Shown piece by piece: positions 25,590-45,789 of a DNA stretch of 62,971 nucleotides. Under the pieces are notes generated by a model that was not told the DNA's origin, did no database searches, and saw only the letters and a list, made by a program, of their open reading frames with translations. Position 1 is the first letter of the stretch; each line of letters begins with the position of its first letter. Made by a program: the position numbers and the translations under genes. This DNA comes from an uncultured Nitrospirota bacterium (GTDB taxonomy: Bacteria; Nitrospirota; Thermodesulfovibrionia; Thermodesulfovibrionales; JdFR-85), in NCBI GenBank assembly GCA_964515925.1, contig CAZEYP010000007.1, positions 1-62,971 on the forward strand, in the 5' to 3' direction.

Positions 25590-26330
25590 ATGGAAATGGT
25601 AGAAATATCCTATCCATTAGCCTTTATGGCTGGCATCGTATCTTTTATTTCTCCCTGTGTCCTTCCTCTTATTCCATCTTATCTCTCTTATATAACGGGT
25701 ATATCCTTTGAGGAACTGACAAATAAAGCCAGCATAAATAAGGTCTGATACCTGAGTCTTGCTCATGCAATCTTTTTTGTAACTGGTTTTTCTATTGTAT
25801 TTATATCGTTAGGAGCTTCTTCATCAGTAATTGGTAAGGTCTTAAATAATTATCAGGATGCGATAAGGATTTCTGGTGGAATAATGATAATTATCTTCGG
25901 ACTGTTTATTGCAGATGTAATCAAGATAGATTTCCTGCTCAGAGAGAGAAGGCTTAACTTTGCAGAAAAACCTGCGGGGTATTTAGGAACTTCCCTGGTA
26001 GGAATGGGCTTTGCTGCAGGCTGGACTCCCTGCATTGGTCCGATTCTCGGCAGCATTCTGATGTATGCTGGTGCACATGGCTCTGTATCCTATGGTGTTA
26101 AACTACTTGGTGTATATTCGTTTGGTCTTTCCTTACCATTTATAATATCGGCCGTTGGATTTAACTTCTTTTTAAGTTATTCCAGAAAAATTTTAAGACA
26201 CATGAAGACCATCAAGATTATTTCAGGAATTTTTCTTATTATTTTTGGTATCCTTCTGTTTTCTAATATGATTAGCGAACTTTCTGGTCTTTTCCCTGAT
26301 TTCGGTCTTGATCTTCCTCTTCCAAAATAA
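25590..26330 (+). pseudogene. ccdA: Cytochrome c biogenesis protein CcdA with an in-frame TGA
   Basis: SFISPCVLPLIPSYLS and FAAGWTPCIGPILG motifs lie in one frame across TGA 25746-25748 (NKV*YLS). Confidence 0.88.
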
Positions 26331-26887: not shown

Positions 26888-27448
26888 AGAACTTTCTGAG
26901 AAGCCTATTTATTATCCCTTTTTTCATACTGGTGGTTGCACTATTAACCGGAGTATTTTCAGGTAAAGAAAAAACAGCTAAAAAACACCCCCGCCCAACA
27001 ATAGGTGAGAAGGCAAGAGACTTTGCCTATCCAGACCTGAATGGAAAAAGTAAGGCTTTCGGATTACTTTGGCAAGAAAGTGATATTTTTGAATATCTGG
27101 GCAACCTGGTGTACTTCCTGTAAAAAGGAGTTACCAACCGTGCAGAGGATGTACGAGAAACTAAAAGGCGACGACCTTGTGGTTCTTGCAGTAAGCATAG
27201 ATGCACTTGGCAAGAAGGCTGTTGAGCCCTTCATGAAGAAATACGGCTCAGATTTTCCTGTTTTGCTCGACACCACAGGCTCGATTCAGCTTCTCTATGG
27301 AACCACTGGTGTGTCTGAGACCTTCATTATAGACAAAAGCGGAAAGATTGCCTATGTGGAGATTGGCGCAGGAGACTGGACCGACCCAGAAAAAGAGGCA
27401 CTGCATAGTGATTCCCTACAGGACAATGGTTATTTCACCTCAGGATGA
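26884..27448 (+). pseudogene. TlpA/ResA thiol-disulfide oxidoreductase, frameshifted
   Basis: TM anchor and ARDFAYPDLNG in one frame, NIWATWCTSC in the next; shift at A-run 27045-27049; C-terminus appears to run into the next gene near 27395. Confidence 0.8.
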
Positions 27449-29490: not shown

Positions 29491-30154
29491 ATGAAATCTA
29501 TTAAGCTAACGAGGGCACTGCTTGTAGTGCTGTTTTTTATGTTTCCACTCTGCTTCTATTTGATCTTTCAGGTGCTCCGACCGAGAGAATCATGGGCGAT
29601 GTGCAGCGGATATTTTATCTGCATGTTTCATTGGCAGTAAGCGCTTATCTTGGATTTGGTGTGCTGTTTTTTTCAAGCATACTATATCTGATTAAGAAGA
29701 GCCTTTACTGGGACAGCCTTGCAAGTTCAGCAGGTGAGGTGGGACTTCTGTTTTCTACCCTTGTTCTCATAACCGGCTCGTTATGGGCACGGCCTGTCTG
29801 GAATGTGTGGTGGACTTGGGACCCCAGGCTTGTTACCATGCTGATACTCTGGTTTATCTACATTGGCTATTTCATGATAAGAAAGGCGGTTACAGAGAAG
29901 ACCAGAAGGGCGAGGTATTCGGCAATTGTTGGAATTATCGGGTTTCTTGATGTCCCGGTGGTGAGGCTTGCCACCAGGTGGTGGAGGTCAATACACCCAC
30001 GACTGGACAGGGAATCAGGTGGCCTTGATCCACTGATGGTAAAGGTTATGATCTTCAGTCTTGTAACATTTTTGATATTTGCAGCGGTATTGATATTTGT
30101 GAGATTCAGGATTGCCTGGACTGAAGAGCGTTTGAACACAATAATCTCTCTATC
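29491..30154 (+). pseudogene. ccmC: Heme exporter CcmC, frameshifted near the 5' end; 3' end fused to a palindrome
   Basis: ATG 29491; shift near 29566-29568; QRIFYLHV, GSLWARPVWNVWWTWDPRL and WWRSIHP (WWD motif). Confidence 0.88.
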
Positions 30155-30191
30155 AGTGAACCTCCCCGACCAAAGGTCGGGGAGGTTCACT
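30155..30191. repeat. 37-bp palindrome, copy 2
   Basis: AGTGAACCTCCCCGACC-AAA-GGTCGGGGAGGTTCACT. Confidence 0.95.
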
Positions 30192-30503
30192 TTAGCAGGG
30201 TTTGGGCTTGCCTTTCTCCTTGGCATACCCTTTTCCATGTCATTCTGTCCATTCTGCGTGCCTGTGGTTCTTAGTATTCTGACAGTGGCTGCTGCCACTG
30301 GAAAACTATGGTACTCTGCCCTTCTTATGTTATTCTTCTCACTTGGCAGGGGGATTCCGCTTGTTATTGCAGGGGTATAGGTTGGTGCATTTAAAAAACT
30401 GCAAAGATTAAAAGCCTACCTCAAGTGGATTGAAAAGTTAGGAGGGGTAATACTTCTGCTAATGGGCCTTTATTATCTTTACGATGTGTTGACCCTCTAC
30501 TGA
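30192..30503 (+). pseudogene. 3' fragment of a second CcdA/DsbD-family gene with an internal TAG
   Basis: FCPFCVPVV, GRGIPL, then AGV*VGAFKK...WIEKLGGVILLLMGLYYL*; TAG at 30378-30380. Confidence 0.75.
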
Positions 30504-30562: not shown

Positions 30563-31165
30563 TCAGCTTATTCCTTGCCCCGGTCCGCCGGTAGTGTTTG
30601 ACGACTTTGAAAGCTCCTTCTCAAAGACCTCATAGAGTCTGAGTTCCATCCTGAATGTCCTGAGTTTCAGGGTCTCATCCCAGTTGTAAATCTCTGGTGG
30701 GCCGTATTTTTTGTTTTTCAGCACATACCGCTCAAGATACTCCCTGTCAGGAAAAACTATTATATATTCCTTAACGCCAAACCTCTCATAAAGGGCCTTC
30801 TTTTCCCGACGGTCCTTCAGTTCCGTGGCAGGAGAGGTTATCTCTATTACAAGATCAGGGGCGCCCTGAATATTGTCTTCTGTGATCTTCTTCTTTGAGC
30901 AGACAACGAACAGATCAGGCTGAACCACATTGAACTCATCAAGCACCACATCCGTGGGGGCATAAAAGGGAATACAACTTTTTAAGGCATCCTTGTTGTT
31001 TACAAATACCTCGGTTAGTCTCCACAAAATCCTCTGGTGTCTGGTCTTAGGTGCAGGTGACATAGAGTAGGCCTGCCCATCAATCAACTCCCACCTCTCA
31101 TCATCAGGCCATCTGAGGTAGTCCTGGTAGGTGAACCGCCTCTGTTTCTTAAGTGCAAGTGGTAT
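30563..31165 (-). CDS. Uma2/DUF820 endonuclease-fold protein, copy 1 (start codon position reads ATA; possibly inactive)
   Basis: WELIDG...MSPAP, VVQPDL, PDLVIEITSP; ATA at 31163-31165 aligns with the ATG of copy 2. Confidence 0.8.
   Translation of the reverse strand: MPLALKKQRRFTYQDYLRWPDDERWELIDGQAYSMSPAPKTRHQRILWRLTEVFVNNKDALKSCIPFYAPTDVVLDEFNVVQPDLFVVCSKKKITEDNIQGAPDLVIEITSPATELKDRREKKALYERFGVKEYIIVFPDREYLERYVLKNKKYGPPEIYNWDETLKLRTFRMELRLYEVFEKELSKSSNTTGGPGQGIS
30614..31158. repeat. 545-bp direct repeat, copy 1 (Uma2 coding sequence)
   Basis: Appears identical by eye to 34683-35227 (offset 4069). Confidence 0.92.
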
Positions 31166-31213
31166 AGTTAATTATAAAGGTTCCTTTCTGGATTTAACAT
31201 GGGTTGTTTTGAA

Positions 31214-31264
31214 TTGACAAATGATATTTTAAACGATATAATATGAGTAATTACTCATATGAGT
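31214..31264 (+). promoter_or_regulatory. Consensus sigma-70 promoter with an overlapping palindromic operator
   Basis: TTGACA(31214)-17-TATAAT(31237); perfect palindrome ATATGAGTAATTACTCATAT at 31241-31260 and overlapping ACTCATATGAGT at 31253-31264. Confidence 0.85.
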
Positions 31265-31278
31265 TAAGGCTAATATGT

Positions 31279-31611
31279 ATGAATCAGTGGATTGAAGACA
31301 CGGCAAGACTTTTAAAGGTACTTGGAGAGCCCAACCGACTTGGCATCCTGTTTGCCATTGGTAAGGAGTCAAGGTCGGTTACAGAGATAATCCGCATCAC
31401 AGGGCTTTCGCAGACCCTTGTGTCTTTTCATCTCAGGGCATTGAGGCGAGCAGATATCGTAAGAACAAGACGGGATGGGCCTTTTATTTACTATAGCCTG
31501 AAAAACCCACATCTTATAGACATACTTATGGAAATCTCAGAGTTAATAGGAAAGACAATGCCCGTAGAGACTGTTTCGCCAGAGATGGTAAATAGTATAA
31601 AGAGGAGGTAG
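31279..31611 (+). CDS. ArsR/SmtB-family repressor
   Basis: LKVLGEPNRLGIL, SQTLVSFHLRAL and RRDG.FIYYSL; ATG 31279 preferred because ATG 31243 precedes the predicted start site. Confidence 0.9.
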   Translation: MNQWIEDTARLLKVLGEPNRLGILFAIGKESRSVTEIIRITGLSQTLVSFHLRALRRADIVRTRRDGPFIYYSLKNPHLIDILMEISELIGKTMPVETVSPEMVNSIKRR

Positions 31612-31614
31612 CCA

Positions 31615-32097
31615 ATGAAAAAAGAATTACTGTTAATAGGAGTATTTATTGTGTTGTTATTTACCGGATGTAACGAAAGCAGTGCTAAAGGTGTCCTGAA
31701 AGATTATACCTTTGTCACCGTAGATGGTAAGAGTATAAACTTTAACAATCTCAAAGGGGCTCTTATAGTAGTAATCAATATAGGTGGGCATTGGTGAAGG
31801 ATATGCAAAAGAGAAGCTCCCGAACTTCAGAGGGCCTATGCGAAATTCAAAGACAGAGGTGTAATCTTTATTGGTGCCTTTGTCCTTGGAAACAACCAGC
31901 AGATAAAAAAGTTTCGGGAGCGATATCATCTGACCTTTCCAGTTGGGAAGGAAAATGGTCTGTCAAAAAAACTTCACATTATTGCACTTCCAACTACAGT
32001 ATTTATAGGAAAAGACGGAAGAATAAAAAAACGCCATATTGGAGAGATTACATTTGAAGATTTAGATAGAGAAATTAAGAAGTTACTTAAACAATAA
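31615..32097 (+). CDS. Putative selenoprotein: TlpA/AhpC-TSA-like lipoprotein with UxxC
   Basis: Lipobox FTGC; reading through TGA 31795-31797 gives HW-U-RIC-KREAPEL...ALPTTVFIGKDG, a complete 160-aa thioredoxin fold. Confidence 0.85.
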
Positions 32098-32112
32098 AAG
32101 GAGGTTTAAAAA

Positions 32113-32382
32113 ATGAAGATGTTTGAGGAAATGATGAAGAAAATAATGGGCGGGATGATGAAGCCAGAGGACATGCCCGAGATGATGACTGCTATGATGG
32201 ACAGGTGTTTCAGTGAGATGAAACCCAATGACAAAATGGCATTTATGGAGAACATGATGCCCAGATGTATGAATATGATGTTTAAGGATATGTCTGTAAA
32301 GGAAAGGAAAAGATTTGCAGAAAAGATGCTTAACAGGATGTTTGGAGAGTTAAAAAAACATGCGGAAGAGGATACTCAATGA
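32113..32382 (+). CDS. Very Met-rich small protein with two Cys
   Basis: GGAGG SD; about a quarter of residues are Met. Confidence 0.75.
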   Translation: MKMFEEMMKKIMGGMMKPEDMPEMMTAMMDRCFSEMKPNDKMAFMENMMPRCMNMMFKDMSVKERKRFAEKMLNRMFGELKKHAEEDTQ

Positions 32383-32395
32383 GGAGGTGATAAAG

Positions 32396-32581
32396 GTGAG
32401 TGGTGAGACAATAAGGGATGTCATTGCCAGTCTTGAGCCTTCTGTTAAAAAGGAACTGCTTAACAGCCTTGTTAGTATGCTAATTGAGGAACTTACAGAG
32501 GCTGAAAAAAAGGAACTCCTTCAGAGGGTTGCTGCAGGGGGCAGAAAAGGCCGAGAGATGATAGAGATGGTTGAGCATTGA
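32396..32581 (+). CDS. Small helical hypothetical protein
   Basis: GAGGAGG before GTG 32396; position within the operon. Confidence 0.65.
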   Translation: MSGETIRDVIASLEPSVKKELLNSLVSMLIEELTEAEKKELLQRVAAGGRKGREMIEMVEH

Positions 32582-32605
32582 ATAAAGGAATGCACGGATT
32601 CAGGT

Positions 32606-32875
32606 GTGAATCCGCTTGAGATGAGCAAGGAACTTATTTCTGCATTCAGTCATTCCTATGAACTGGCAACATACTCAACACCTGAATTGAGGACATTGTT
32701 TAATGACTGGCTTTCAGAGATTGAGCAGGAGGTGGTCTCCTTTCTTAAAGACAGACACAGGGTTGACCCTGACGAGGTGGCAGGACATCTGAGGATAGGC
32801 CGTGAGAGTGCAATATTCATCCTGAGCAAACTTGCCAGGGAAGGAAAGATAAACATGCAGGCATATGGGTTTTAA
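32606..32875 (+). CDS. Hypothetical protein with C-terminal winged-helix-like segment
   Basis: TPELRTLFNDWL and A.HLRIGRESAIFILSKLAREGKI. Confidence 0.65.
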   Translation: MNPLEMSKELISAFSHSYELATYSTPELRTLFNDWLSEIEQEVVSFLKDRHRVDPDEVAGHLRIGRESAIFILSKLAREGKINMQAYGF

Positions 32876-32899
32876 CATATCTTATTGGGAGGTTATTCC

Positions 32900-33190
32900 A
32901 TGAAACTATTTGATTTCAAAAGTGGTGCCATTGCTTCTGCACTGGCATATGCATTTTGTTGACAGCTACCGCTGGTCCTGGCCAGTGTGGGGCTGGGGAG
33001 TTTTACATTTTCCTTATGGTTTATAAAGTACAGATGGCTCTTTCTTGTAATTACTTTTGTATTTCTTGCTATTGCGTGGTATATGACCTTCAAAGGTCAG
33101 AGGAAACCGGGCAAATGGAGCAAAGCAATACTTTATGGTACCACAGTGTTGAGTATTACACTTGTGCTTTACAGTTTTATAACCACATAA
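32900..33190 (+). CDS. Putative selenoprotein: MerT/MerF-like transporter with Cys-Sec in place of Cys-Cys
   Basis: GGAGG and ATG 32900; AYAFC-U(32960-32962)-QLPLVLASVGLG aligns with the MerT CC..PLVL..LG motif; three TM helices; hairpin directly 3' of the TGA. Confidence 0.8.
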
Positions 33191-33201
33191 AGGAGGCAGT
33201 G

Positions 33202-34638
33202 ATGTCGGACAAAGACAGAAAAACAAAACCTGACAGTTGCTGACCCTCAACCGACTCTGCCAGTGGGCAGGACAGGATAAGTCAGGAGTCAGGAGTCAGA
33301 AGTCAGGAGGGGGATGCAGAAAAGGGCGCTCCAAAGGCCGAGCACTGCATGGTCTGTGGTGAGAAGCTGCAGTATCTTGAGACCTCACGCAGTTTGAAGT
33401 GTCTATACTGCGGCAAGGAAGAGGAAGGTCACATTACCTGCCCTAAGGGACACTACATCTGTGAGCACTGCCACAACCAGGACGCAATGCGGATGATAGA
33501 GGATGTGGCCTTCAGCACTAAATCTCAAAATCCAGTTGAGATAGCCGAGCTGATGCTCTCCTTTCCAGGGCTTCCAATGCTTGGCTGCCATCATGCCTAC
33601 ATCGCAGGTGGTGCACTCATGGCGGTAATAAAAAACTCTGGCACAAGAAAGATAACCAATGATGATATAAAGGAGGTCTTTAAGAGGACTAAACGCCAGG
33701 CACATGGTGGATACTGCGGCCTTACCGGGGTTTGCGGCATTGCCCCTGCAATAGGAGCGGTTTTTGCTGTATTGACTGGGTCAAAGTGTGGCACAGACAG
33801 AGAGCAGCGGATTACAATGGAGGCAGTCACGAGGGTTACAAGGGCGATAACAGAACTAACAGGGCCCAGTTGCTGCAAGGCATATGTGAAAAGCTCCCTT
33901 GAGGTGGCCACAGAATCTCTCAGGGAATCCCTTGGAATTGAACTTCCCACGCAGAGGGTGTCGGCCTGTCTTCATTCCGAGAAACATCCCCACGGCTGCC
34001 GGGAGATGAAATGTCCATACTTTGGCAGTAGTGGTTCAGATAATGACAGGCTCGAAAGTCAGGTTGAAAACCCGCTTCCGTCACTCAATGATTTTTCCTC
34101 TAAGGATGAGACAATGGATTTTCTCATTAAAAAGGCCCTTGAACTCGGTGCTGAGAGGGCAAAGTTAATTGACACAAATACAGTGGTTGTTCAAGAGTGG
34201 GTTAGATGGAAATGCCGTTACGGCTGTCCTCTTTATGGAAAAGATGCCTATCATCCTCCCTGTGCTCCTGATGCAGAGACCACCCATAGGATGCTTTCTG
34301 AATACAAAAGAGCCATACTGATGAACTGCCCAAAGGGAAAGCCTCTTACAGAGGTGGCGGTAAGACTTGAAGGTATTGCCTACAGGATGGGATTTTATAA
34401 GGCATTTGCGATGACAGCACTTTCCTCAGGACCTCCTGGCATGACCTGACCTTCGGGTGAGGAGGATGCCCGGGAGGACTCCGAGAGAGAGGCACAGAAG
34501 GAGATGAGGATCAGACCCCTTATGGAGGCATGTGGTATTGATGTCTTTAAGACCGCCCGTGCAAATGGCTTTGAGATTGACACCAGGAAAGAAACTTACG
34601 GCAGGTGGAACTACTTTGCCCTCTTACTGATTGAGTAA
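33202..34638 (+). CDS. Putative double-Sec protein: N-terminal CU, DUF5714 and DUF2284 (478 aa)
   Basis: AGGAGG and ATG 33202; in-frame TGAs at 33241-33243 (SC-U-P) and 34447-34449 (GMT-U-P); readthrough restores the DUF2284 tail RPLMEACGIDVF. Confidence 0.8.
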
Positions 34639-35240
34639 TTCCCTGAACTTTTTCCGGGTTCTTTATCATTGCCCTCTTTTGACTCCTTCTCAAAGACCTC
34701 ATAGAGTCTGAGTTCCATCCTGAATGTCCTGAGTTTCAGGGTCTCATCCCAGTTGTAAATCTCTGGTGGGCCGTATTTTTTGTTTTTCAGCACATACCGC
34801 TCAAGATACTCCCTGTCAGGAAAAACTATTATATATTCCTTAACGCCAAACCTCTCATAAAGGGCCTTCTTTTCCCGACGGTCCTTCAGTTCCGTGGCAG
34901 GAGAGGTTATCTCTATTACAAGATCAGGGGCGCCCTGAATATTGTCTTCTGTGATCTTCTTCTTTGAGCAGACAACGAACAGATCAGGCTGAACCACATT
35001 GAACTCATCAAGCACCACATCCGTGGGGGCATAAAAGGGAATACAACTTTTTAAGGCATCCTTGTTGTTTACAAATACCTCGGTTAGTCTCCACAAAATC
35101 CTCTGGTGTCTGGTCTTAGGTGCAGGTGACATAGAGTAGGCCTGCCCATCAATCAACTCCCACCTCTCATCATCAGGCCATCTGAGGTAGTCCTGGTAGG
35201 TGAACCGCCTCTGTTTCTTAAGTGCAACCGGCATGTTCAA
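34611..35240 (-). CDS. Uma2/DUF820 endonuclease-fold protein, copy 2
   Basis: Same motifs as copy 1; intact ATG. Confidence 0.88.
   Translation of the reverse strand: MNMPVALKKQRRFTYQDYLRWPDDERWELIDGQAYSMSPAPKTRHQRILWRLTEVFVNNKDALKSCIPFYAPTDVVLDEFNVVQPDLFVVCSKKKITEDNIQGAPDLVIEITSPATELKDRREKKALYERFGVKEYIIVFPDREYLERYVLKNKKYGPPEIYNWDETLKLRTFRMELRLYEVFEKESKEGNDKEPGKSSGNYSISKRAK
34683..35227. repeat. 545-bp direct repeat, copy 2
   Basis: Matches 30614-31158. Confidence 0.92.
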
Positions 35241-35474: not shown

Positions 35475-35726
35475 ATGCATGGCACCGGTTTTGGTATGGG
35501 ATTTGGTGGATTTGGTCTGGGCTGGGTCTTCATGATACTTTTCTGGGGAGTAATCATCCTTGTTGCTGTTTACCTGATAAAAGCTGTATTTACTGATAAA
35601 AAATCAGATAGCCCTGGTAAGGATTCTGAGACAGCCGAGGATATACTCAAGAGAAGACTTGCAAGTGGTGATATTTCTACTGAGGAGTATGAAGAAAAAC
35701 TAAGAATACTTAGAGAAGGGAGGTGA
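35475..35726 (+). CDS. SHOCT-domain small membrane protein
   Basis: MG.GG.G..FMILFW TM segment; AEDILKRRLASGDISTEEYEEK. Confidence 0.85.
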   Translation: MHGTGFGMGFGGFGLGWVFMILFWGVIILVAVYLIKAVFTDKKSDSPGKDSETAEDILKRRLASGDISTEEYEEKLRILREGR

Positions 35727-35868: not shown

Positions 35869-36516
35869 ATGAAACGAATGTTGTTATTAATTATTGTAGC
35901 CCTTGGGTTAATGGCAGGTTCAGCCTTTGCTCAGATGGGTAATATGATGGGGCAGGGTATGATGGGACAGCCTCAGCAGGAGCAGGCACCTGTACAGCAG
36001 ATGCCCTACCAGATGGGCCCTGGTGCAGGATATGGTTACGGAATGATGGGTCCAGGTATGATGGGTGGTTATGGAATGGGCTATGGAATGATGGGGCAAG
36101 GTTATGGTATGGGCCCTGGCATGATGGGTGGTTACGGCATGGGGCCTGGCATGATGGGTTATGGTGGCGGCTATGGAATGATGGGTAGAGGAATGGGCCC
36201 CGGAATGATGATGGGCCCTGGGATGATGGGAATGATGCACAGAATGATGATGGGCCCGGGAATGATGGGTTATGGAATGATGGGCCCTGGCTATGGAATG
36301 GTTCCTGGATACTCAAAGGAGTATCAGAAATTTCTTGATGAAACCCGTGATCTCAGAAAAAAGTTGAATGAAAAGAGGTTTGAGTATTTTGAGGCTCTGA
36401 GGGACCCAAAAACAAAGCCTGAGACTTTAACAAAGTTAAGAGACGAGATAGTTAAACTTCGCAGAGAGATATACAAAAAGAACCCCTTTGCAGGTTTCGG
36501 CTGTTATGGTTATTAA
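35869..36516 (+). CDS. Exported Gly/Met-repeat protein with ZraP/Spy-like helical C-terminus
   Basis: Signal peptide; many GMMGPG repeats; YQKFLDETRDLRKKL...EIVKLRREI. Confidence 0.75.
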   Translation: MKRMLLLIIVALGLMAGSAFAQMGNMMGQGMMGQPQQEQAPVQQMPYQMGPGAGYGYGMMGPGMMGGYGMGYGMMGQGYGMGPGMMGGYGMGPGMMGYGGGYGMMGRGMGPGMMMGPGMMGMMHRMMMGPGMMGYGMMGPGYGMVPGYSKEYQKFLDETRDLRKKLNEKRFEYFEALRDPKTKPETLTKLRDEIVKLRREIYKKNPFAGFGCYGY

Positions 36517-36585: not shown

Positions 36586-37416
36586 ATGTTACAGGGTGTA
36601 ATGCTCTTGTGGTTTTTACTTACTGCAGTTTCTGTGGTTTTTGTAGCAATAGATATTGTAAAAACACCTGAGTCTACAGTGCTTAAATGGGGATTTGTAT
36701 TGATTACTGCTTACATCGGTCCGGTTGGTGCATTCCTTTATGTGCTTGGTTGCAGAGAGCCACTTCCAGGTCTTCATAAACAATATACCTCACATAGATG
36801 GCGTCAGGTATTGGGCTCTACCATGCACTGCGTATCTGGTGATGGGTTGGGAATTCTTGTAGGTGCAGTTATTGGTGGGCTAATTCATTTTTCCAGACCA
36901 CTTGAGATAGGTCTTGAGTATCTTCTTGGGTTTGGTTTTGGATGGACCATCTTTCAGGCACTCTTTATGAAAGACACTGCTGGAGGCTCCTTTTTAAAGG
37001 CATTGAAGAAGACCTTTATTCCAGAACTTGTTTCAATGAATTATCTGATGGCTGCAATGGTGGTGGTAATGTCGTTTGGAATGAAGATGATTCCAGACAG
37101 TAATAACCCTTTGACCATGGGTTTTTGGTTTGTTATGTCAATGTCTTTATTAACCGGTTTTGTCTTTGCCTATCCGGTGAACTGGTGGCTGGTATCAAAC
37201 AATCTAAAACACGGAATGATGACAGTAAGACCTGCAGGAACGGCTCATAACATTGAGAAACAAGGTGGCAGTAATGCAAAACATGGCTTGGATATGAATA
37301 CTCATTCAACAGATATGCAGACGGCCAGGGTTTCTACCACCTCTTTGGTTTTAACGGTGGTTATGTCATTTATTGTTTTTGGCATTGGTATTGGAGTTGC
37401 ATTTGCATGGGGGTAG
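36586..37416 (+). CDS. DUF4396-domain membrane protein
   Basis: STMHCVSGDG.G and FAYPVNWWLV..NLKHGM. Confidence 0.85.
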   Translation: MLQGVMLLWFLLTAVSVVFVAIDIVKTPESTVLKWGFVLITAYIGPVGAFLYVLGCREPLPGLHKQYTSHRWRQVLGSTMHCVSGDGLGILVGAVIGGLIHFSRPLEIGLEYLLGFGFGWTIFQALFMKDTAGGSFLKALKKTFIPELVSMNYLMAAMVVVMSFGMKMIPDSNNPLTMGFWFVMSMSLLTGFVFAYPVNWWLVSNNLKHGMMTVRPAGTAHNIEKQGGSNAKHGLDMNTHSTDMQTARVSTTSLVLTVVMSFIVFGIGIGVAFAWG

Positions 37417-37453: not shown

Positions 37454-38647
37454 CTATAAAGAATTAACCTCCTTAACGAGGAATTTAGATTTATGAGAAA
37501 GCATAGCGAAAAGGGTTCTCAGGAGTTTATGAGCAGTGGCCAGGATGGCTTTTTTATAAGGCAGGCCGTCAGCTCTTCTTTTAAGGAAGTAAGACTTAAA
37601 AGTGTCATTGAATCTAACAACACTTGTGGTCATAAGATAAATGACTCTTCTGAGGTGACGATTACCTCGTTTAGATATTCTGCTTGTGCCTTGAAACTTA
37701 CCCGACTGATAGACAGAGGGGTCGATACCTGCATAGGCAATAAGGCTTTTATGGGAAGAGAAGTTTTCAATACTACCGATTTCAGCAAGGAAAGTGGCAC
37801 CTGTAGTGGAATCAATGCCATCAATGGAGGTAATGATTTCGAGTTCATCAATGGCAATGCTCTGGCATTGCTCTTTGAGGGCTCTGTCGAAGGTTTCGAG
37901 TCTTTTCATAAGGTGCAGAAGGGTGGAAATTTTCTCACTGAGGATGAGTTCTTTAGCAGGGCTTATGGAGGCGATAGAGTTTTTAGCGGCATGGATGAGC
38001 TTTGTAGGGGACACAGAGGCTCTTCTGCCTCTACCATTAAGACTGAAGGCCTCAGAGAGGGTTTCGGGATTAGAGACGGCAATAATGCGAGCAGAGGGGA
38101 ATTGCTGAAGGAACTGGAGCATGGTTTTAGTGAAGGGGTTACAGAGGCTGAGGAGTTCAGGGAAGGTAGTTTGAAGGAGTCTTTTGATTTCGTTTTTAGT
38201 AGAGGCGATAAGGGAGGCGATGGATTCTCTTTCTCTGGCAATATCTCTAAGGTCAGAGAGGTTCTGGGAGATATGGGTCTGGGAGATGGAGTCTTTATGG
38301 AGGAGGATAAAACGGGCAATGGTGAGGGAGTCTTTTTTGTCGGTTTTGGTTTTTCTGAGGGTGAGTTTAGCGAAGTTAAAGATTAGAAGGGGATTGATAA
38401 CGACGGTATTAAGGCCTTTGTTGGAGAGGAAGGAGAAGAGATTGATGTGGTAACAGCCTGTGGATTCCATGGCAATGAGTGCAGAGGGAGGGCTGCAGCA
38501 GTGGGAGGAAATGTGTTTAAGGAGGGTGGAGAAGCCCTCTTTGTCCATACTGGCAGAGAAAGAGAAGAGGGGCTGGCCTTTTGTGTCAATACCAGTAGCA
38601 GAGAAGGAATCCCTGGAGACATCGATACCGACGAAGAGACTATACAA
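37454..38647 (-). CDS. IS110-family transposase/recombinase
   Basis: GIDVS, MESTGCY, KTKTDKKD (DEDD) and AYAGIDPSVYQSG...ISKRGNRHLR; AAGGAGG before TTG. Confidence 0.95.
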   Translation of the reverse strand: MYSLFVGIDVSRDSFSATGIDTKGQPLFSFSASMDKEGFSTLLKHISSHCCSPPSALIAMESTGCYHINLFSFLSNKGLNTVVINPLLIFNFAKLTLRKTKTDKKDSLTIARFILLHKDSISQTHISQNLSDLRDIARERESIASLIASTKNEIKRLLQTTFPELLSLCNPFTKTMLQFLQQFPSARIIAVSNPETLSEAFSLNGRGRRASVSPTKLIHAAKNSIASISPAKELILSEKISTLLHLMKRLETFDRALKEQCQSIAIDELEIITSIDGIDSTTGATFLAEIGSIENFSSHKSLIAYAGIDPSVYQSGKFQGTSRISKRGNRHLRRVIYLMTTSVVRFNDTFKSYFLKRRADGLPYKKAILATAHKLLRTLFAMLSHKSKFLVKEVNSL

Positions 38648-38889: not shown

Positions 38890-39957
38890 ATGCCGAAAGA
38901 CCCCATATGTAATATGGAAGTAGATGAAAAGGATGCCCTTACAACGGAATGTGATGGACAGACCTACTATTTCTGCTCCGAAGGTTGCAGGGATAGGTTT
39001 CTTAAAGACAAGGCATGTAAACTTCCAAGAACCACCTACGACCTGATAATTATCGGTGGTGGTCCTGCAGGGCTTACTGCTGCAGTGTATGCCGCCACTT
39101 TGAAAATAGATGCATTCCTGATAGCAAAAGACCTGGGTGGACAGGCAATTGATAGCACCAAGATAGAAAACTACATGGGATACGATTTCATAACAGGCCC
39201 TGAATTGACAAAGCGTTTTCAGGACCAGTTGATACGCTCCCACTACATAGATCACCTTATGTCGCAGGTTGAAAAGATCGAGCCCTTTGAGGAGGGCTTC
39301 AGGGTGATTACATCAGAGTTGCGGAAATACACCGCAAAGGCACTGATTGTGGCAACCGGTATGACCAGAAGAAAATTGAAGATTCCTGGTGAGGAGGAGT
39401 TCCAACGAAGAGGTGTGTTTTATGGCAATATCCAGGACCTTGCCTTTGTTCAGGGTGAGGATGCAGTGGTTGTTGGTGGTGGCAACTCGGCAATGCAGAT
39501 AGTTGAAAATCTTCATACAGTGGCAAGGAATATCCACCTGGTTTCCGATTCCGAATTGAAGGCAGACCCTGTGATAATCGATAGGATAAAGAGATTCAAA
39601 AATCTCAGGATTTACGAGGGCTACAGAACCATTGAGTTTAAAGGCAACAGGACCCTGAGTGCTGTGGTCATTAAAAAGATGGCATCAGATGAAAAACTGG
39701 AATTACCTGCAAAGGGTGTGTTTGTGGCTATCGGGCTTCAACCGAATTCCTCGCTTGTTTCAGACCTGTGTGACCTGAATGAGCGGGGTGAGATAATTAT
39801 TAATCCCGACTGCTCAACATCTTATCCTGGAATCTTTGCTGCCGGTGATGTAACTAATGCCTTTGGAAAAAGAATCATCATAGCCTCTGGTGAAGGAGCT
39901 AAGGCTTCAATGGCAGCAAGACAGTATCTGCTTGATTTAAGAAAGAAAGAGAAGTAG
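38890..39957 (+). CDS. YHS domain fused to a thioredoxin-reductase-like flavoprotein lacking CxxC
   Basis: KDPICNM...YYFCSEGC; GGGPAG, GGGNSA and GIFAAGD; GVFYGNIQD where CxxC is expected. Confidence 0.85.
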   Translation: MPKDPICNMEVDEKDALTTECDGQTYYFCSEGCRDRFLKDKACKLPRTTYDLIIIGGGPAGLTAAVYAATLKIDAFLIAKDLGGQAIDSTKIENYMGYDFITGPELTKRFQDQLIRSHYIDHLMSQVEKIEPFEEGFRVITSELRKYTAKALIVATGMTRRKLKIPGEEEFQRRGVFYGNIQDLAFVQGEDAVVVGGGNSAMQIVENLHTVARNIHLVSDSELKADPVIIDRIKRFKNLRIYEGYRTIEFKGNRTLSAVVIKKMASDEKLELPAKGVFVAIGLQPNSSLVSDLCDLNERGEIIINPDCSTSYPGIFAAGDVTNAFGKRIIIASGEGAKASMAARQYLLDLRKKEK

Positions 39958-39960
39958 TTT

Positions 39961-41025
39961 TTGAAGGTTCTTGAGAGCATAGAAAAGAGCCTGTTTGTTC
40001 TTCATACAGGTCAGGTTACCTGCCATGACACAAATGGTAATCAAATCCCCTGTGCGGGGACAGGTCAGGATGGAGAATATAGAACCGGCATCAAATGGCC
40101 TGAGCCTCGTTTCCAGGTCTCAGGCAACACAGTGCTTGACCGGCTTACAGGTCTTATATGGACCAGGAATGCAAATCCTTTAGAACTACCGCTTACATGG
40201 CAGGAGGCCTTTGAATACATTGAGAAGATGAACAGAGAGAGAGCCTTTGGTTATTCAGACTGGCGTATGCCCAACAGAAGAGAACTCAGAAGTCTCCTCA
40301 GTTATCAAACGAAAAAGCCGGCATTACCGGAGAGTCACCCCTTTGAAAATGTCTTCAGTGGATGGTACTGGACATCTACCACAGCTGCAATCAATCCAGC
40401 CTATGCCTGGTATATCCATATGGAAGGTGCCAGGATGTTTTATGGTGAAAAGAGGCAGTTTTTTCTCCTCTGGCCTGTAAGAGGCAGTGGCTCTTCGGTG
40501 CTTGCTGCCACAGGACAAAGAGGATGTTTTGATCAGGATGGGCGTCAGGTTCCCTGTTCTGGTACCGGGCAGGATGGGGAGTTTCAATATGGAATTCACT
40601 GGCCTGTACCAAGATTTCAGGTGCACGGTGAGGTGGTGCTTGACAGACTAACCAACCTGTGCTGGCTTAAAAGGGCAGACCTTGCAGGAAAGACGGTTAC
40701 ATGGCAGGAGGCATTATTGATTGTTAAAGAACTGAATGCAGGCAGGGGAACTATTACATTATGGCGTCTGCCAAATATAAATGAACTTGAAACACTTATT
40801 GACTGCAGCACCCACAGCCCGGCCCTGCCCGAAGGACATCCCTTTGAAGATGTTCGGGAGGGATACTGGTCGTCAACCACCAGCATGTATGAGCCCGACT
40901 GGGCCTGGGCTTTGTATCTTAAAAAGGGTGCCCTTGGAGTGGGACAGAAAAGAGGTACCTATTTTCATGTGTGGCCGGTTTGCAATGCTTCAGATATGTT
41001 AGAAAAAAGGATATTAGATGGATAA
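39961..41025 (+). CDS. Tandem DUF1566 (Lcl) domain protein
   Basis: Two repeats of D.LT.L.W, WR.P...EL and YWSSTT, each preceded by TGQ..C.D..G..C.GTGQDGE. Confidence 0.85.
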   Translation: MKVLESIEKSLFVLHTGQVTCHDTNGNQIPCAGTGQDGEYRTGIKWPEPRFQVSGNTVLDRLTGLIWTRNANPLELPLTWQEAFEYIEKMNRERAFGYSDWRMPNRRELRSLLSYQTKKPALPESHPFENVFSGWYWTSTTAAINPAYAWYIHMEGARMFYGEKRQFFLLWPVRGSGSSVLAATGQRGCFDQDGRQVPCSGTGQDGEFQYGIHWPVPRFQVHGEVVLDRLTNLCWLKRADLAGKTVTWQEALLIVKELNAGRGTITLWRLPNINELETLIDCSTHSPALPEGHPFEDVREGYWSSTTSMYEPDWAWALYLKKGALGVGQKRGTYFHVWPVCNASDMLEKRILDG

Positions 41026-41890
41026 AATTAATGAAAATAAGACATACAATCATGCTACAGACCCTGTATGTGGTATGAGGGTAAACAGTGATAGTCCTTT
41101 TTCCTTTTTGTACAACCAGAAGGAATACAGATTTTGCTCTGATAAATGCAGAGACCTGTTTCAGCAGGAGCCGGAACTTTTTCTTTCTATGCAGAACAAA
41201 AGGCAGATGCTTTTTGAACAGGAGCGTACCAGGAGTTTGAAAAAGATGGCTGACCAGATAACCCATGAGATTAGAAATCCCCTTACCTCAATAGGTGGTT
41301 TTGCAAGAAGAATATTGAAGAACCTTCCAGAGGACGCACCTGACAGGGAGTACATGAAGAGGGTTATTGAGGATGTAGAAAGGCTTGAACAGATGGTAAA
41401 CAGGATTGTCAGATTTGAATCCGAGCAGTTGATATTGGAGAAAACAGACCTGAATGCACTCATTAAGGAAATAGTTGATATGTTTGATGTGCTATTGAGG
41501 GGAAACAGGATTACTCTCAAACTGTCGCTGGAGGAACTGCCCGAGATTTTTTTGGATAGGGCAAAGATGAAGTCTGCACTGTCAAATATAGTAAAAAATG
41601 CCATTGAGGCAATGGAAGGTGCGAAGAGGATACTGACTATTTCTACCCATCTGGTGGGTGATGAGGTTTTAATTTCTATATCGGATACTGGCAAGGGAAT
41701 ACCCACGGATAAGATCAAATACATCTTTGATCCCTTCTTTACCTCAAAGATATACGGTCCGGGCCTGGGCCTTTCCTTTGTAAAAGAAGTTTTGCAGGCT
41801 CATAAAGGTAGAATAGAGGTGCAAAGCACCCCGGGCAGGGGAACAACCTTTAAGATTAAAATTCCTGCAGGAAGGGAGGCCAGAAGATGA
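41018..41890 (+). CDS. Soluble histidine kinase with N-terminal YHS domain
   Basis: TDPVCGM...FCSDKC; HEIRNPL, NAIEAM, DTGKGI, FDPFFTSK and GPGLGL. Confidence 0.88.
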   Translation: MDKINENKTYNHATDPVCGMRVNSDSPFSFLYNQKEYRFCSDKCRDLFQQEPELFLSMQNKRQMLFEQERTRSLKKMADQITHEIRNPLTSIGGFARRILKNLPEDAPDREYMKRVIEDVERLEQMVNRIVRFESEQLILEKTDLNALIKEIVDMFDVLLRGNRITLKLSLEELPEIFLDRAKMKSALSNIVKNAIEAMEGAKRILTISTHLVGDEVLISISDTGKGIPTDKIKYIFDPFFTSKIYGPGLGLSFVKEVLQAHKGRIEVQSTPGRGTTFKIKIPAGREARR

Positions 41891-43350: not shown

Positions 43351-45789
43351 ATGAAGGTAAAAGATCCCGTATGTGGTATGGAGATCGAAGAGTCCGAGGC
43401 AAAGGCAAGGGAAACCCACAATGGGCAAACCTACTATTTCTGCTCAGAAGGCTGCAGAGATAAATTTGTTAAATCCCCCGAGACCTATGTGCATCACAAG
43501 CACGATCATCGTGAACACACCACCAGCGAAGAGCCGTTAAAAACCTCAGAAGAGACAGAATACACTTGTCCCATGCATCCTGAGGTCAGACAGAAAGGGC
43601 CAGGTAATTGTCCCAGGTGTGGTATGGCACTGGAGCCTGTAATCCCTGTTACCAAAAAGGCTCCCGAGGGTGAAACCCTGTGGACATGCCCCATGCATCC
43701 AGAGATTATAAAAGACAGCCCTGGCAACTGTCCTATATGTGGTATGGCACTTGAGCCAAAAACTGCTACATCGGAGGATGAGGAAAATCCAGAACTCATT
43801 GACATGACCCGAAGGTTTAAACTTGGTGTTGTGCTCACAATACCTCTTTTAATCATAGCAATGGGTGAATATGTGCCCGGGGTGTCAAATCTTCTTGATA
43901 TGCTGCCAGCAGGAGTTCTTAAATGGACAGAGTTGATTCTGGCAACGCCTGTTGTGCTCTGGTCAGGCTTGCCCTTTTTTGTGAGGTTCTGGCAGTCAAT
44001 AGTCAATAAAAGCCCCAATATGTTTACCCTGATCGGGCTTGGCGTGGGAGTGGGGTATATCTACAGTGTGGTGGCAACTGTGTTTCCAGGAATTTTCCCC
44101 GAGGCATTCAGAGATGCCGAGGGAGGAGTTGGTGTGTATTTTGAGGCATCAGCCGTGATTGTGGTGCTTGTTCTCCTTGGTCAGGTGCTTGAACTGAGGG
44201 CACGAAGCAAGACAGGTGCTGCCATCAAGGCCCTGCTGGGACTTGCTCCGAAGACTGCCCGTAGAATAAAGGATGGTGTGGAAGAGGACATTCCCCTTGA
44301 GCATGTTAAACCTGGCGATCTGTTAAGGGTCAGACCAGGGGAGAAGATTCCTGTTGATGGGGTGGTTGTGGAAGGCACAACAAGCGTGGATGAATCTATG
44401 GTAACTGGCGAGCCGATTCCTGTTACCAAAGGCCCTGGAGACAGGGTTATTGGAGCGACCGTAAATGGAACAGGTTCTATTGTGATTAAGGCTGAAAAGG
44501 TTGGTGCCGATACCCTGCTATCGCAGATTGTGCAGATGGTGGCAGAGGCACAGCGTAGCCGTGCCCCAATACAGAAACTTGCTGATGTGGTGGCAAAGTA
44601 TTTCGTTCAGATAGTGGTGGCAATTGCGGTTGCAACCTTTGTGGTGTGGGCATGGATTGGGCCTGACCCCAGGATGGCCCATGCACTTATAAATGCAGTG
44701 GCTGTGCTGATAATCGCATGCCCCTGCGCCCTTGGGCTTGCCACACCCATGTCTATAATGGTTGCCACTGGAAAGGGTGCCACAATGGGTGTGCTTTTCA
44801 AGAATGCAGAGGCAATAGAGATAATGCGTAAGGTCGATACCCTGGTTGTGGACAAAACCGGCACCCTCACCGAGGGAAGACCAAAACTTGTTAAGGTGTA
44901 CCCTGCCGAGGGTATGGATGAGAAGGAACTGCTCAAATATGCCTCTTCAATCGAGCAGGCAAGTGAGCATCCCCTTGCCGAGGCTATAGTAAAAGGTGCA
45001 AAGGAAAAGGGTATTGAGCCGGCAAAGATAGATGATTTTGAGTCTGTTACAGGTAAGGGTGTAAAGGGAAAGGTTCAGGGCCATGAGGTTGCCCTTGGTA
45101 ATCAGAAACTGCTTGAGGACCTTGGAATTGATGTAACGGCTCTGAACAGGGTTGCTCAGGAGATGAGGGCTGAGGGACAGACGGTGATGTTTGTTGCAGT
45201 GGATGGAAGGCCTGCCGGGCTTATTGGGGTGGCTGATCCGATTAAAGAGACCACGCCTCTGGCCATTAAGGAACTCCATGAGGAGGGCATAAGGGTTGTA
45301 ATGATGACAGGGGATAACAAAACCACAGCAGAGGCAGTGGCAAGAAGGCTTGGCATAGACGATGTTATTGCAGGTGTGCTGCCTGATCAGAAGGCAGAGA
45401 AGGTAAAGGAACTCCAGGCACAGGGAAGAATTGTTGCAATGGCTGGCGATGGCATTAATGATGCACCTGCCCTTGCACAGGCTCATGTGGGTATTGCTAT
45501 GGGAACCGGAACTGATGTGGCAATGGAATCAGCAGGGGTAACTTTGATAAAGGGAGACCTTAGAGGCATAGTAAGGGCAAGAAGACTTAGCCGTGCCACC
45601 ATGCGTAACATCAAGCAGAACCTGTTCTGGGCCTTTGCATACAACGCCCTCGGTGTACCCATCGCAGCAGGGGTGTTATATCCATTCTTTGGGCTGCTCC
45701 TCAGTCCTGTATTTGCAGCAGCAGCCATGAGCTTCAGCTCTGTCTCTGTGGTAGGAAATGCCCTCAGGCTTAAGAGAGTGAGGATTTAG
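43351..45789 (+). CDS. copA: Cu(I)-translocating P1B-type ATPase with YHS and two CPMHP metal-binding domains
   Basis: [25 protein letters not shown] and YN...MSFSS; N-terminal DPVCGM/FCSEGC and two CPMHP..C..CGM repeats. Confidence 0.95.

What the first reader, a model, noticed from the sequence alone, without database searches (positions are those of the whole stretch)
32900..33190. MerT/MerF-like membrane transporter with Cys-Sec instead of the Cys-Cys mercury-binding pair
Seen: ATG 32900 reads ...AYAFC-U-QLPLVLASVGLG... with three TM helices. Directly after the TGA is a hairpin, CAGCU..CC-GCUGGU(CCUG)GCCAGU..GG-GGCUG. Known: MerT uses a vicinal CC in TM1 to bind Hg(II), and Se has a much higher affinity for Hg than S. 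Inference: a very-high-affinity soft-metal importer. It sits under ArsR rather than MerR control, and no merA or merP is in the window, so its substrate and purpose are open.
Basis: partly seen in the sequence, partly recalled or inferred. Interest (0 to 1): 0.75.

Follow-up and report, generated by a model that had tools for sequence, protein, structure and literature searches.

The report
Selenocysteine MerT-like membrane metal transporter
This is a real small membrane protein of the mercury-transporter (MerT) superfamily whose metal-binding Cys-Cys pair is replaced by Cys-selenocysteine, part of a conserved operon of selenoproteins in hydrothermal-vent bacteria; the type has been mentioned in the literature, but this subfamily is truncated and unnamed in public records.

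Summary
ORF 32900-33190 (+) encodes 96 aa with an in-frame TGA at 32960-32962, directly after a Cys. All 14 related loci I recovered keep the TGA in that column, with conserved coding sequence on both sides. Cys-containing homologues place the second Cys of a vicinal CC pair there.

The family is homologous over its full length to MerT-type proteins (hhalign 99.8%). The closest annotated relative is the 97-aa Bacillus RC607-type MerT (44% identity over 61 residues by BLASTP). It scores below every curated MerT cut-off.

The conserved SECIS-like hairpin is 32976-32998, with an (A/G)GU loop and frozen synonymous sites.

The gene lies in a tightly packed operon: ArsR, a TlpA-like UxxC lipoprotein, a TsoA-like selenoprotein, this protein, then the curated double selenoprotein MbdU. 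MbdU carries its own N-terminal Cys-Sec. The window has no merA, merP or hgcA.

Most likely it is a thiophilic metal(loid) transporter that hands its cargo to MbdU. The substrate is unknown.

MerT-family Cys-Sec selenoproteins were already noted by Haft and Gwadz (2022 preprint), so this is a new member of a known kind. Interest is moderate.

The parts
32900..33190 (+). MerT-like selenoprotein gene, 96 aa, three predicted TM helices. Cys20-Sec21 lies in TM1. The short basic TM2-TM3 loop has no Cys.
32960..32962 (+). In-frame TGA read as selenocysteine (codon 21). It aligns with the second Cys of the CC pair in Cys-type homologues.
   Evidence: The TGA is conserved in 14 of 14 loci. CC alignment.
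32976..32998 (+). Conserved SECIS-like hairpin. The stem starts 17 nt from the U of UGA and the loop is AGUGUGG, with G-U at +26/+27.
   Evidence: RNAalifold consensus. 93.8% of cells paired. Folds at -11.1 kcal/mol on its own. Synonymous sites are frozen: Ala GCC 13/13, Leu CTG 12/13 and 12/12, Ser AGT 9/9.
32963..32995 (+). It is the MFE fold in this window but is not conserved.
31214..31242 (+). Sigma-70-type promoter match, TTGACA-17-TATAAT (12 of 12), just upstream of the ArsR gene.
   Evidence: consensus match only
31243..31611 (+). ArsR-family HTH regulator, first gene of the operon. The true start is probably the ATG at 31279, which leaves no Cys in the protein.
   Evidence: Pfam HTH_5 E = 1.6e-12. 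Homologues in L001 and L004-L007. Start inferred.
31615..32097 (+). TlpA/ResA-like thioredoxin-fold lipoprotein with a W-U-R-I-C motif (TGA 31795-31797).
   Evidence: Homologues lie upstream of the MerT-like gene in L004, L005 and L007.
32113..32382 (+). 89-aa Met-rich protein of unknown family. Not seen in the other loci.
32360..32875 (+). TsoA-like selenoprotein (H-U-IKEC, TGA 32579-32581) with a perfect 8-bp hairpin, loop GGUG, at +17 to +36.
   Evidence: NCBIfam NF045695 at 103 bits, below the 170 cut-off. Hairpin. Synteny.
33202..34638 (+). MbdU, the metal-binding double selenoprotein (Zn-ribbon + DUF5714 + DUF2284). Sec at 33241-33243 (DSC-U-PS in the N-terminal tail) and at 34447-34449.
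   Evidence: NCBIfam NF045648 at 760.9 bits, above the 600 cut-off. Also. It lies immediately downstream of the MerT-like gene in the window and 8 other loci.
30614..31158 (.). Left copy of a 545-bp exact direct repeat (partial Uma2 gene) bracketing the operon.
34683..35227 (.). Right copy of the 545-bp exact direct repeat (Uma2 gene).

Best explanation
Shown:
- The gene encodes a 96-aa, three-helix inner-membrane protein of the MerT superfamily.
- Its architecture is that of the short Bacillus RC607-type MerT: the same length, and no Cys pair in the TM2-TM3 loop.
- UGA codon 21 is almost certainly decoded as selenocysteine, giving a Cys-Sec pair in the middle of TM1 where MerT has Cys-Cys.
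- Decoding is most likely directed by a conserved hairpin 17-39 nt downstream, with an (A/G)GU loop. This hairpin has the same position and the same loop type as the hairpins after the Sec codons of the two flanking genes.

Inferred mechanism:
- As in MerT, the selenolate/thiolate pair binds a soft, thiophilic metal or metalloid ion inside the membrane.
- It passes the ion by ligand exchange to a cytoplasmic acceptor.
- The acceptor is not MerA. It is MbdU, encoded 12 nt downstream, which carries its own Cys-Sec pair on a flexible N-terminal tail.
- Where present, the periplasmic TlpA-like U-x-x-C lipoprotein may play the MerP role.
- The operon starts with an ArsR-family repressor gene.
- The substrate is not identified. 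Candidates include Hg, As/Sb, Cd, Cu(I) and Ag.
For: Sec decoding:
- The TGA is in the same column in 14 of 14 loci, with amino-acid conservation on both sides and an SD before the upstream ATG.
- Two gene-caller products spell W at that column (P0005, P0058). For P0005 the DNA (L006) carries TGA there; P0058's DNA was not read.
- Most database relatives are N-terminally truncated ORFs of 48-78 aa.

Cys/Sec pairing:
- Cys-type homologues have CC aligned to C-U.

SECIS:
- Third-position entropy falls to 0-0.4 bit at codons +5 to +8 and at codon +11, against 1.5-2.0 bit elsewhere.
- The TsoA-like and MbdU Sec codons have hairpins with GGUG and AGUG loops at the same distance.

Family:
- merT_RC607 E = 3.5e-11, covering residues 9-94 of the protein and 8-94 of the 97-position profile.
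- 8 of 28 family members hit Pfam MerT, best E = 3.9e-7.
- 39.8% identity to annotated Bacillus cereus merT, which sits in a merR-E-T-P-A operon.
- hhalign 99.8%, E = 2e-29, over 95 columns.

Partner:
- MbdU lies immediately downstream in the window and 8 other loci. An ArsM-type selenoprotein takes that position in L011.
- The MbdU N-terminal C-U is conserved.

Setting:
- The window comes from a hydrothermal-vent metagenome and the gene lies in a metal-homeostasis island.
Against: - There is no direct evidence of selenium incorporation, of transport, or of any substrate.
- The hairpin shows no compensatory changes. Its support is conservation only.
- Scores are below the curated MerT, MerC and MerT/CopZ-selenoprotein cut-offs.
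- No merA, merP or merR is adjacent.
- The ArsR protein has no conserved Cys, so it is not an obvious thiophilic-metal sensor.
- The first Cys of the pair is missing in L015 (A-U) and L017 (L-U).
- L006 and L012 lack MbdU.
- The window contains no Sec machinery (selA/B/D, tRNA-Sec).
Confidence: 0.6

Rival explanations
1. Transmembrane redox relay. The vicinal Cys-Sec pair cycles between selenenylsulfide and selenol/thiol, as in the GCUG end of mammalian thioredoxin reductase. It would carry reducing equivalents from the cytoplasm to the periplasmic TlpA-like U-x-x-C lipoprotein, doing the job of CcdA/DsbD rather than transporting metal.
For: - A TlpA/ResA-like selenoprotein is encoded in the same operon in the window, L004, L005 and L007.
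- The Sec subfamily lacks the cytoplasmic Cys pair found in the Cys-type MerT homologues recovered here.
- Vicinal C-U is an established redox motif (general knowledge).
Against: - The protein is homologous to MerT, not to CcdA/DsbD.
- The TlpA-like gene is absent from L001 and L006, whereas MbdU is the near-constant neighbour.
- The window has separate DsbD/CcdA-like genes at 25590-26330 and 29592-30380.
Confidence: 0.12
2. Classical mercury-resistance importer. It is a Hg(II)-specific MerT orthologue feeding a MerA encoded elsewhere in the genome.
For: - The best annotated match is Bacillus merT.
- A MerR-family regulator close to the MerR cut-off (139 bits against 151) lies 13.6 kb upstream.
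- Selenium has a very high affinity for Hg (general knowledge).
Against: - There is no merA, merP or merB in 63 kb.
- The only large flavoprotein near a homologue (L006) is a dihydrolipoyl dehydrogenase, not MerA: 517 bits against a 409 cut-off, versus 344 bits against the 454 MerA cut-off.
- The conserved partners are MbdU or ArsM-type selenoproteins under ArsR.
Confidence: 0.08
3. Membrane anchor, sequestration or export role. The protein holds or exports a metal(loid) or selenium species, or docks MbdU at the membrane, without net import.
For: - MerT-type proteins are small and have no energy coupling, so direction depends on the sink (general knowledge).
- The MbdU tail is long, of low complexity and variable between strains.
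Against: - Every characterised member of the MerT, MerF and MerC group mediates uptake (general knowledge).
- A P1B-ATPase for efflux is already present at 43351-45789.
Confidence: 0.1
4. The TGA is a genuine stop. The locus is a pseudogene, or it is two unrelated small ORFs.
For: - Gene callers annotate only the downstream 48-78 aa pieces, as 'hypothetical protein'.
- The window contains no Sec machinery.
Against: - 14 of 14 loci keep the TGA with conserved peptide upstream and an SD at the upstream ATG.
- Cys aligns at that column in homologues.
- The RNA hairpin is conserved and its synonymous sites are frozen.
- The next gene passes a curated selenoprotein model.
Confidence: 0.02

Closest known systems
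Bacillus RC607-type MerT (NCBIfam NF033560; for example merT on B. cereus plasmid pJ62_2, NZ_AP022966.1)
   Same: - Length (97 against 96 aa).
- Three TM helices.
- A vicinal pair at the same TM1 position, followed by x-x-P-L.
- The K-Y-R motif before TM2.
- A short basic TM2-TM3 loop without Cys.
- 44% identity over 61 residues.
   Different: - CC instead of CU.
- It sits in a merR-merE-merT-merP-merA operon.
- The window protein scores only 43 bits against a 130-bit cut-off.
MerT-family Cys-Sec selenoproteins noted by Haft and Gwadz (bioRxiv 10.1101/2022.07.06.499078; example WP_250634603.1), and NCBIfam NF045683 'MerT/CopZ fusion-like heavy metal transport selenoprotein'
   Same: The same idea: a MerT-related transporter carrying selenocysteine in a CU motif.
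   Different: - The curated model describes a 235-aa fusion with a CopZ-like domain. The window protein has no such domain and scores 17 bits against a 375-bit cut-off.
- I could not retrieve WP_250634603.1, so I cannot say whether it belongs to this short subfamily.
Tn501/Tn21 MerT (Pfam PF02411), and the MerTP-type fusions found here (P0035, P0038, P0039, P0046)
   Same: Homologous TM1-TM3 core and a CC pair in TM1.
   Different: - The MerT-like Cys homologues recovered here carry a second Cys pair in the TM2-TM3 loop, often with a C-terminal HMA domain. That canonical Tn501/Tn21 MerT also has such a loop pair is from memory.
- The Sec subfamily has neither feature.
- Pfam score is 17.5 bits against a 32.9-bit cut-off.
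'Putative mercuric transport protein' selenoprotein of Zhang and Gladyshev 2007 (ABB16073.1, motif C/SxxU; listed in PMC13188914)
   Same: A MerT-annotated selenoprotein.
   Different: The Sec is in a CxxU-type motif, not in the vicinal TM1 pair.
MerF (PDB 2M67/2MOZ) and MerC (PF03203)
   Same: Small mercury uptake proteins with a Cys pair in TM1.
   Different: The matches are not significant: MerF E = 0.52, and MerC 20 bits against a 27.6-bit cut-off. They have two and four TM helices, respectively.

Membership tests
Bacterial selenoprotein | In-frame UGA conserved among orthologues, with coding sequence conserved on both sides | tested here: met
   14 of 14 loci
Bacterial selenoprotein | Cys-containing homologues with Cys aligned to the UGA column | tested here: met
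   CC in 11 Cys-type homologues aligns with C-U, as it does in Bacillus MerT
Bacterial selenoprotein | SECIS hairpin shortly downstream of UGA, with G/U in the apical loop | tested here: met
   - Conserved hairpin at +17 to +39 with an (A/G)GU loop.
- Synonymous sites frozen.
- No covariation, and no Rfam match.
Bacterial selenoprotein | Sec machinery (selA, selB, selC, selD) in the genome | not testable with these tools
   None is in the window. Indirect support: the adjacent gene passes the curated MbdU selenoprotein model.
Bacterial selenoprotein | Selenium demonstrably incorporated | not testable with these tools
   Needs 75Se labelling or mass spectrometry.
MerT (Pfam PF02411 / NCBIfam NF033560, NF010314) | Profile score above the curated cut-off | tested here: not met
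   - PF02411: 17.5 bits against 32.9.
- NF033560: 43.3 bits against 130.
- NF010314: 21.1 bits against 150.
MerT (superfamily level) | Significant full-length homology to MerT proteins | tested here: met
   - NF033560 E = 3.5e-11 over residues 9-94.
- hhalign 99.8%.
- 8 of 28 members hit PF02411.
MerT | Three TM helices with a vicinal Cys pair in TM1 | tested here: inconclusive
   Three helices are predicted (low-confidence model). The pair is Cys-Sec, not Cys-Cys.
MerT (Tn501 type) | Second Cys pair in the cytoplasmic TM2-TM3 loop | tested here: not met
   The loop KGQRKPGKWSK has no Cys. Bacillus RC607 MerT also lacks the pair.
MerT | Encoded in a mer operon with merR, merP and merA | tested here: not met
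   No MerA, or MerP/HMA in the window. The neighbours are ArsR, TlpA-like, TsoA-like and MbdU.
MerT | Transports Hg(II) | not testable with these tools
   Needs an uptake or hypersensitivity assay.
NCBIfam NF045683 MerT/CopZ fusion-like heavy metal transport selenoprotein | Score above cut-off, and a CopZ/HMA-like domain | tested here: not met
   17.2 bits against 375. The protein is 96 aa with no HMA domain.
MerF / MerC | Significant profile or sequence match | tested here: not met
   MerF (PDB) E = 0.52. MerC 20 bits against 27.6.

The most novel reading that the evidence does not exclude
The operon may encode a complete selenolate-based hand-off pathway across the cell envelope. The proposed route is a periplasmic U-x-x-C lipoprotein, then the Cys-Sec pair in the membrane helix, then the Cys-Sec pair on the flexible N-terminal tail of MbdU, and finally the DUF5714/DUF2284 metal site of MbdU. 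In this reading the pathway captures and processes a scarce or toxic soft metal(loid) rather than detoxifying mercury. It would travel as a strain-variable cassette in hydrothermal-vent Nitrospirota and Desulfobacterota.
Probability: 0.25. Interest if true: 0.7.

Novelty: new member of a known kind. Interest (0 to 1): 0.45.

Why it matters
If Sec21 really is the metal ligand, this subfamily offers a natural experiment on what selenium adds to a membrane metal-transfer site, in affinity, exchange kinetics or resistance to oxidation. MerT is a minimal and well-studied scaffold on which to test that.

The constant pairing with MbdU gives that uncharacterised double selenoprotein a testable upstream supplier.

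There is also a practical annotation point. Every public record of this subfamily that I recovered is a truncated 'hypothetical protein'. The current curated models do not cover it, so selenoproteome counts in vent and sediment MAGs miss it.

Tried and rejected
- **Rfam** scan of 31000-35000 at E <= 10: only two chance-level hits and no SECIS family.
- **ARAGORN**: no tRNA-Sec in the window.
- **Word-indexed protein search** with the single protein found only 2 relatives.
I therefore searched with the post-Sec part only.
- **The search for related loci** with the broad alignment failed because no stretch was conserved enough. With the narrow alignment it gave 1 genome locus and 2 metagenome loci.
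- **AlphaFold2** model of homologue P0058 had pLDDT 61.5 and pTM 0.30. That is too weak for a fold search, so I used only its secondary structure.
- **PDB profile search**: MerF at E = 0.52, not significant.
- **RNA sequencing runs**: none hold the locus.
- **Haft and Tolstoy 2025** (mSystems; the source of MbdU and TsoA) and the J Bacteriol version of Haft and Gwadz are not held. I could not check whether this exact subfamily is described there.
- **MerA in L006**, rejected: that protein is a dihydrolipoyl dehydrogenase.
- **ResA-like ORF 27041-27448 as a selenoprotein**, rejected: it has an ordinary WCTSC motif.

Full report
**1. What is in the sequence**

ATG 32900 to TAA 33190 on the + strand translates to MKLFDFKSGAIASALAYAFC*QLPLVLASVGLGSFTFSLWFIKYRWLFLVITFVFLAIAWYMTFKGQRKPGKWSKAILYGTTVLSITLVLYSFITT. 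The single internal stop is TGA at 32960-32962. A GGGAGG Shine-Dalgarno lies 7 nt before the ATG.

Hydropathy shows three hydrophobic segments and one strongly basic loop at residues 61-75. An AlphaFold2 model of the 58%-identical homologue P0058 gives helices 7-31, 34-43, 45-65 and 72-95. Its confidence is low (pLDDT 61.5), so I use only the secondary structure.

It is no better than shuffled sequence: z = -1.08, with 25 of 200 shuffles as good.

**2. Is the TGA a selenocysteine codon?**

I recovered 13 further loci encoding relatives at roughly 41-90% identity (tblastn best segments), using protein searches, contig look-ups and collection scans.

- In all 14 loci an in-frame TGA sits in the same column.
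- The 18-20 residues before it are conserved (consensus MK..L..GGA.TSA.AY.FC), and an SD precedes that upstream ATG.
- Eleven of the 13 loci in the codon table, and also the end-cut L010, have Cys just before the TGA. L015 has Ala and L017 has Leu.
- Two database proteins (P0005, P0058) are called full-length with W at that column. For P0005 the locus does not translate to the query under table 11, so the caller read TGA as Trp.
- Of 55 representative clusters (50% identity level), most are 47-78-aa fragments that begin just after the TGA. This is the usual signature of an unrecognised selenoprotein.
- Full-length Cys-type homologues, several with a precomputed Pfam MerT hit and many fused to an HMA domain, have C-C aligned to C-U. 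Sec therefore replaces the second Cys.

**3. The SECIS element**

RNAalifold instead finds a stem at columns 17-24 with 31-39, counted from the U of UGA. This is window 32976-32998, with loop (A/G)GUNNN, and 93.8% of its cells pair. There are no compensatory changes, because the stem hardly varies.

The evidence for an RNA-level constraint comes from the synonymous sites:

| Codon | Usage |
|---|---|
| Ala +7 | GCC in 13/13 |
| Leu +6 | CTG in 12/13 |
| Ser +8 | AGT in 9/9 (never TCN) |
| Leu +11 | CTG in 12/12 |

Elsewhere in the same alignment, Ala, Leu, Ser, Thr and Arg codons use 3-5 synonyms. Third-position entropy is 0-0.4 bit in the stem against 1.5-2.0 bit elsewhere.

In the window this hairpin folds alone at -11.1 kcal/mol, with G-U at +26/+27. 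The Sec codons of the two flanking genes have hairpins at the same distance and with the same loop type:
- TsoA-like: 8 perfect pairs, loop GGUG at +25 to +28.
- MbdU: loop AGUG at +22 to +25.

From general knowledge, this matches the bacterial SECIS layout: an apical stem-loop starting about 11-20 nt after UGA with G/U in the loop.

**4. What family is it?**

| Test | Result |
|---|---|
| Pfam MerC | 20 bits (cut-off 27.6) |
| Pfam MerT | 17.5 bits (cut-off 32.9) |
| NCBIfam merT_RC607 | E = 3.5e-11, 43 bits (cut-off 130), residues 9-94 on 8-94 of a 97-position profile |
| NCBIfam MerT/CopZ fusion-like selenoprotein (NF045683) | 17 bits (cut-off 375) |
| Family members hitting Pfam MerT | 8 of 28, best E = 3.9e-7 |
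| hhalign, Sec subfamily against Cys-type MerT homologues including Bacillus MerT | 99.8% probability, E = 2e-29, 95 columns |
| PDB MerF | E = 0.52, not significant |

tblastn against plasmids finds annotated Bacillus cereus merT at 39.8% identity over residues 13-93. That gene lies in a merR1-merE-merT-merP-merA operon. Its product is 97 aa, has CC in TM1 and a Cys-free basic loop, so it has the same architecture as the window protein.

The protein is therefore a distant branch of the MerT superfamily with the RC607-type short architecture. It is not a MerT equivalog.

**5. Context**

The gene is the fifth of six tightly packed, same-strand genes. A 12/12 sigma-70 consensus match at 31214-31242 precedes them.

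| Coordinates | Gene |
|---|---|
| 31243/31279-31611 | ArsR-family regulator |
| 31615-32097 | TlpA/ResA-like lipoprotein, W-U-R-I-C |
| 32113-32382 | Met-rich 89-aa protein |
| 32360-32875 | TsoA-like selenoprotein, H-U-IKEC (103 bits, cut-off 170) |
| 32900-33190 | This gene |
| 33202-34638 | MbdU, two Sec codons (760.9 bits, cut-off 600) |

These assignments rest.

tblastn of these proteins on the other loci gave the following:
- MbdU lies immediately downstream of the MerT-like gene in L001-L005, L007, L010 and L015.
- A TsoA-like gene lies upstream in seven loci.
- A TlpA-like gene lies upstream in L004, L005 and L007.
- ArsR lies upstream in L001 and L004-L007.

In L011 the downstream gene is an ArsM-type selenoprotein. 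L012 has no metal context.

MbdU has a conserved C-U in a low-complexity N-terminal tail, DSC-U-PS.

The window contains no MerA, MerP/HMA motif, HgcA or Sec machinery. It does hold a metal island:
- a MerR-family regulator;
- CopC;
- three YHS-domain proteins, one of them a P1B-ATPase.

The source is a hydrothermal-vent metagenome. The closest genome locus is a Nitrospirae MAG. Other members come from Desulfobacterales and Desulfobulbus MAGs, and all are annotated as hypothetical proteins.

**6. Mechanism**

Shown: MerT homology, the Cys-Sec pair in mid-TM1, and the conserved adjacency to MbdU with its own Cys-Sec tail.

Inferred from established MerT biology: metal is passed by ligand exchange from a periplasmic CxxC protein, to the TM1 pair, to a cytoplasmic acceptor. 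By analogy, this protein binds a soft metal(loid) at the selenolate/thiolate pair and hands it to the MbdU tail. The TlpA-like UxxC lipoprotein is a possible MerP analogue.

The substrate is open:
- The ArsR protein has no conserved Cys.
- The ArsM-type partner in L011, and the DUF2284 domain that MbdU shares with ArsM fusions (306 bits), point as much to metalloids as to mercury.

The main rival is a redox relay to the TlpA-like protein. I rate it lower because MbdU, not TlpA, is the constant partner, and because the homology is to MerT rather than to CcdA/DsbD.

**7. Novelty**

- A 2026 review lists a 'putative mercuric transport protein' selenoprotein, together with MbdU and TsoA.
- NCBIfam holds a MerT/CopZ fusion selenoprotein model.

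The kind is therefore known.

This short, HMA-less subfamily is not covered by any curated model I could test. It forms a clade of about 50 clusters in which I saw no Cys orthologue, it sits in a conserved multi-selenoprotein operon, and it is truncated in every public record I saw. I could not read Haft and Tolstoy 2025, which may describe it as an MbdU neighbour.

Verdict: a real feature, well supported as a selenoprotein, and a new member of a known kind. Function is untested and interest is moderate.

Noticed in passing
window 30614-31158 and 34683-35227: A 545-bp exact direct repeat, each copy covering most of a Uma2 gene, brackets the whole ArsR-to-MbdU operon (unit length 4069 bp). In two hydrothermal-vent metagenome runs the operon unitig has about half the k-mer depth of the flanks (57.8 against 120-127, and about 6-7 against 11-13). 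The operon therefore appears to be present in only part of the population, as expected for a cassette gained or lost by recombination between the repeats.
   Followed up: partly
window 31615-32097: A TlpA/ResA-like thioredoxin-fold lipoprotein with an in-frame TGA at 31795, giving W-U-R-I-C. It is probably a selenoprotein, but no obvious hairpin follows this TGA.
   Followed up: partly
window 32360-32875: A TsoA-like selenoprotein: H-U-IKEC rather than the LULAxC motif, and 103 bits against a 170-bit cut-off. A perfect 8-bp hairpin with a GGUG loop follows the TGA at 32579. The C-terminal half has a weak FeoC-like winged-helix match, so it could be a sensor or a chaperone.
   Followed up: partly
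window 33202-34638: MbdU double selenoprotein, with Sec codons at 33241 and 34447. The low-complexity linker around 33270-33320 (GTCAGGAG repeats) shows alternative sequences in the metagenome contigs and differs between homologous loci.
   Followed up: partly
window 31214-31279: A perfect TTGACA-17-TATAAT match ends one base before the annotated ArsR ATG. Homologues suggest the real start is the ATG at 31279. That would leave the regulator without any Cys, which is unusual for a sensor of thiophilic metals.
   Followed up: partly
window 32976-33008: The conserved SECIS-like hairpin is followed by AGUUUUAC. The simple terminator scan flagged it as terminator-like. This is probably a coincidence of Ser-Phe-Thr codons.
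   Followed up: no
window 25590-26330: A CcdA/DsbD-like membrane protein ORF is interrupted by an in-frame TGA at 25746-25748 (INKV-TGA-YLSLAH). It is unclear whether this is a Sec codon, a pseudogene or an error.
   Followed up: no
window 18867-45789: A metal-homeostasis island. It contains:
- a MerR-family regulator, 18867-19265 (-), 139 bits against a 151-bit MerR cut-off;
- CopC, 22291-22626 (-);
- a 928-aa NapH-like Fe-S membrane protein;
- Ccm ABC genes;
- a SHOCT protein, 35475-35726;
- a Gly/Met-rich repeat protein, 35869-36516;
- DUF4396, 36586-37416;
- an IS110 transposase, 37454-38647 (-);
- a YHS-thioredoxin-reductase-like protein, 38890-39957;
- a YHS-histidine kinase, 41018-41890;
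- a YHS/HMBD P1B-ATPase, 43351-45789.
   Followed up: partly
L006 181-5563: A more distant MerT-like Sec gene sits in a different context: ArsR, a distant TsoA-like gene, three DsrE-like genes, a dihydrolipoyl-dehydrogenase-type flavoprotein and two SHOCT proteins. This hints at a link to sulfur or selenium trafficking.
   Followed up: partly
window 32113-32382: An 89-aa protein very rich in Met, with MMxxC-like motifs. It overlaps the start of the TsoA-like gene, matches no family, and is absent from the homologous operons.
   Followed up: no
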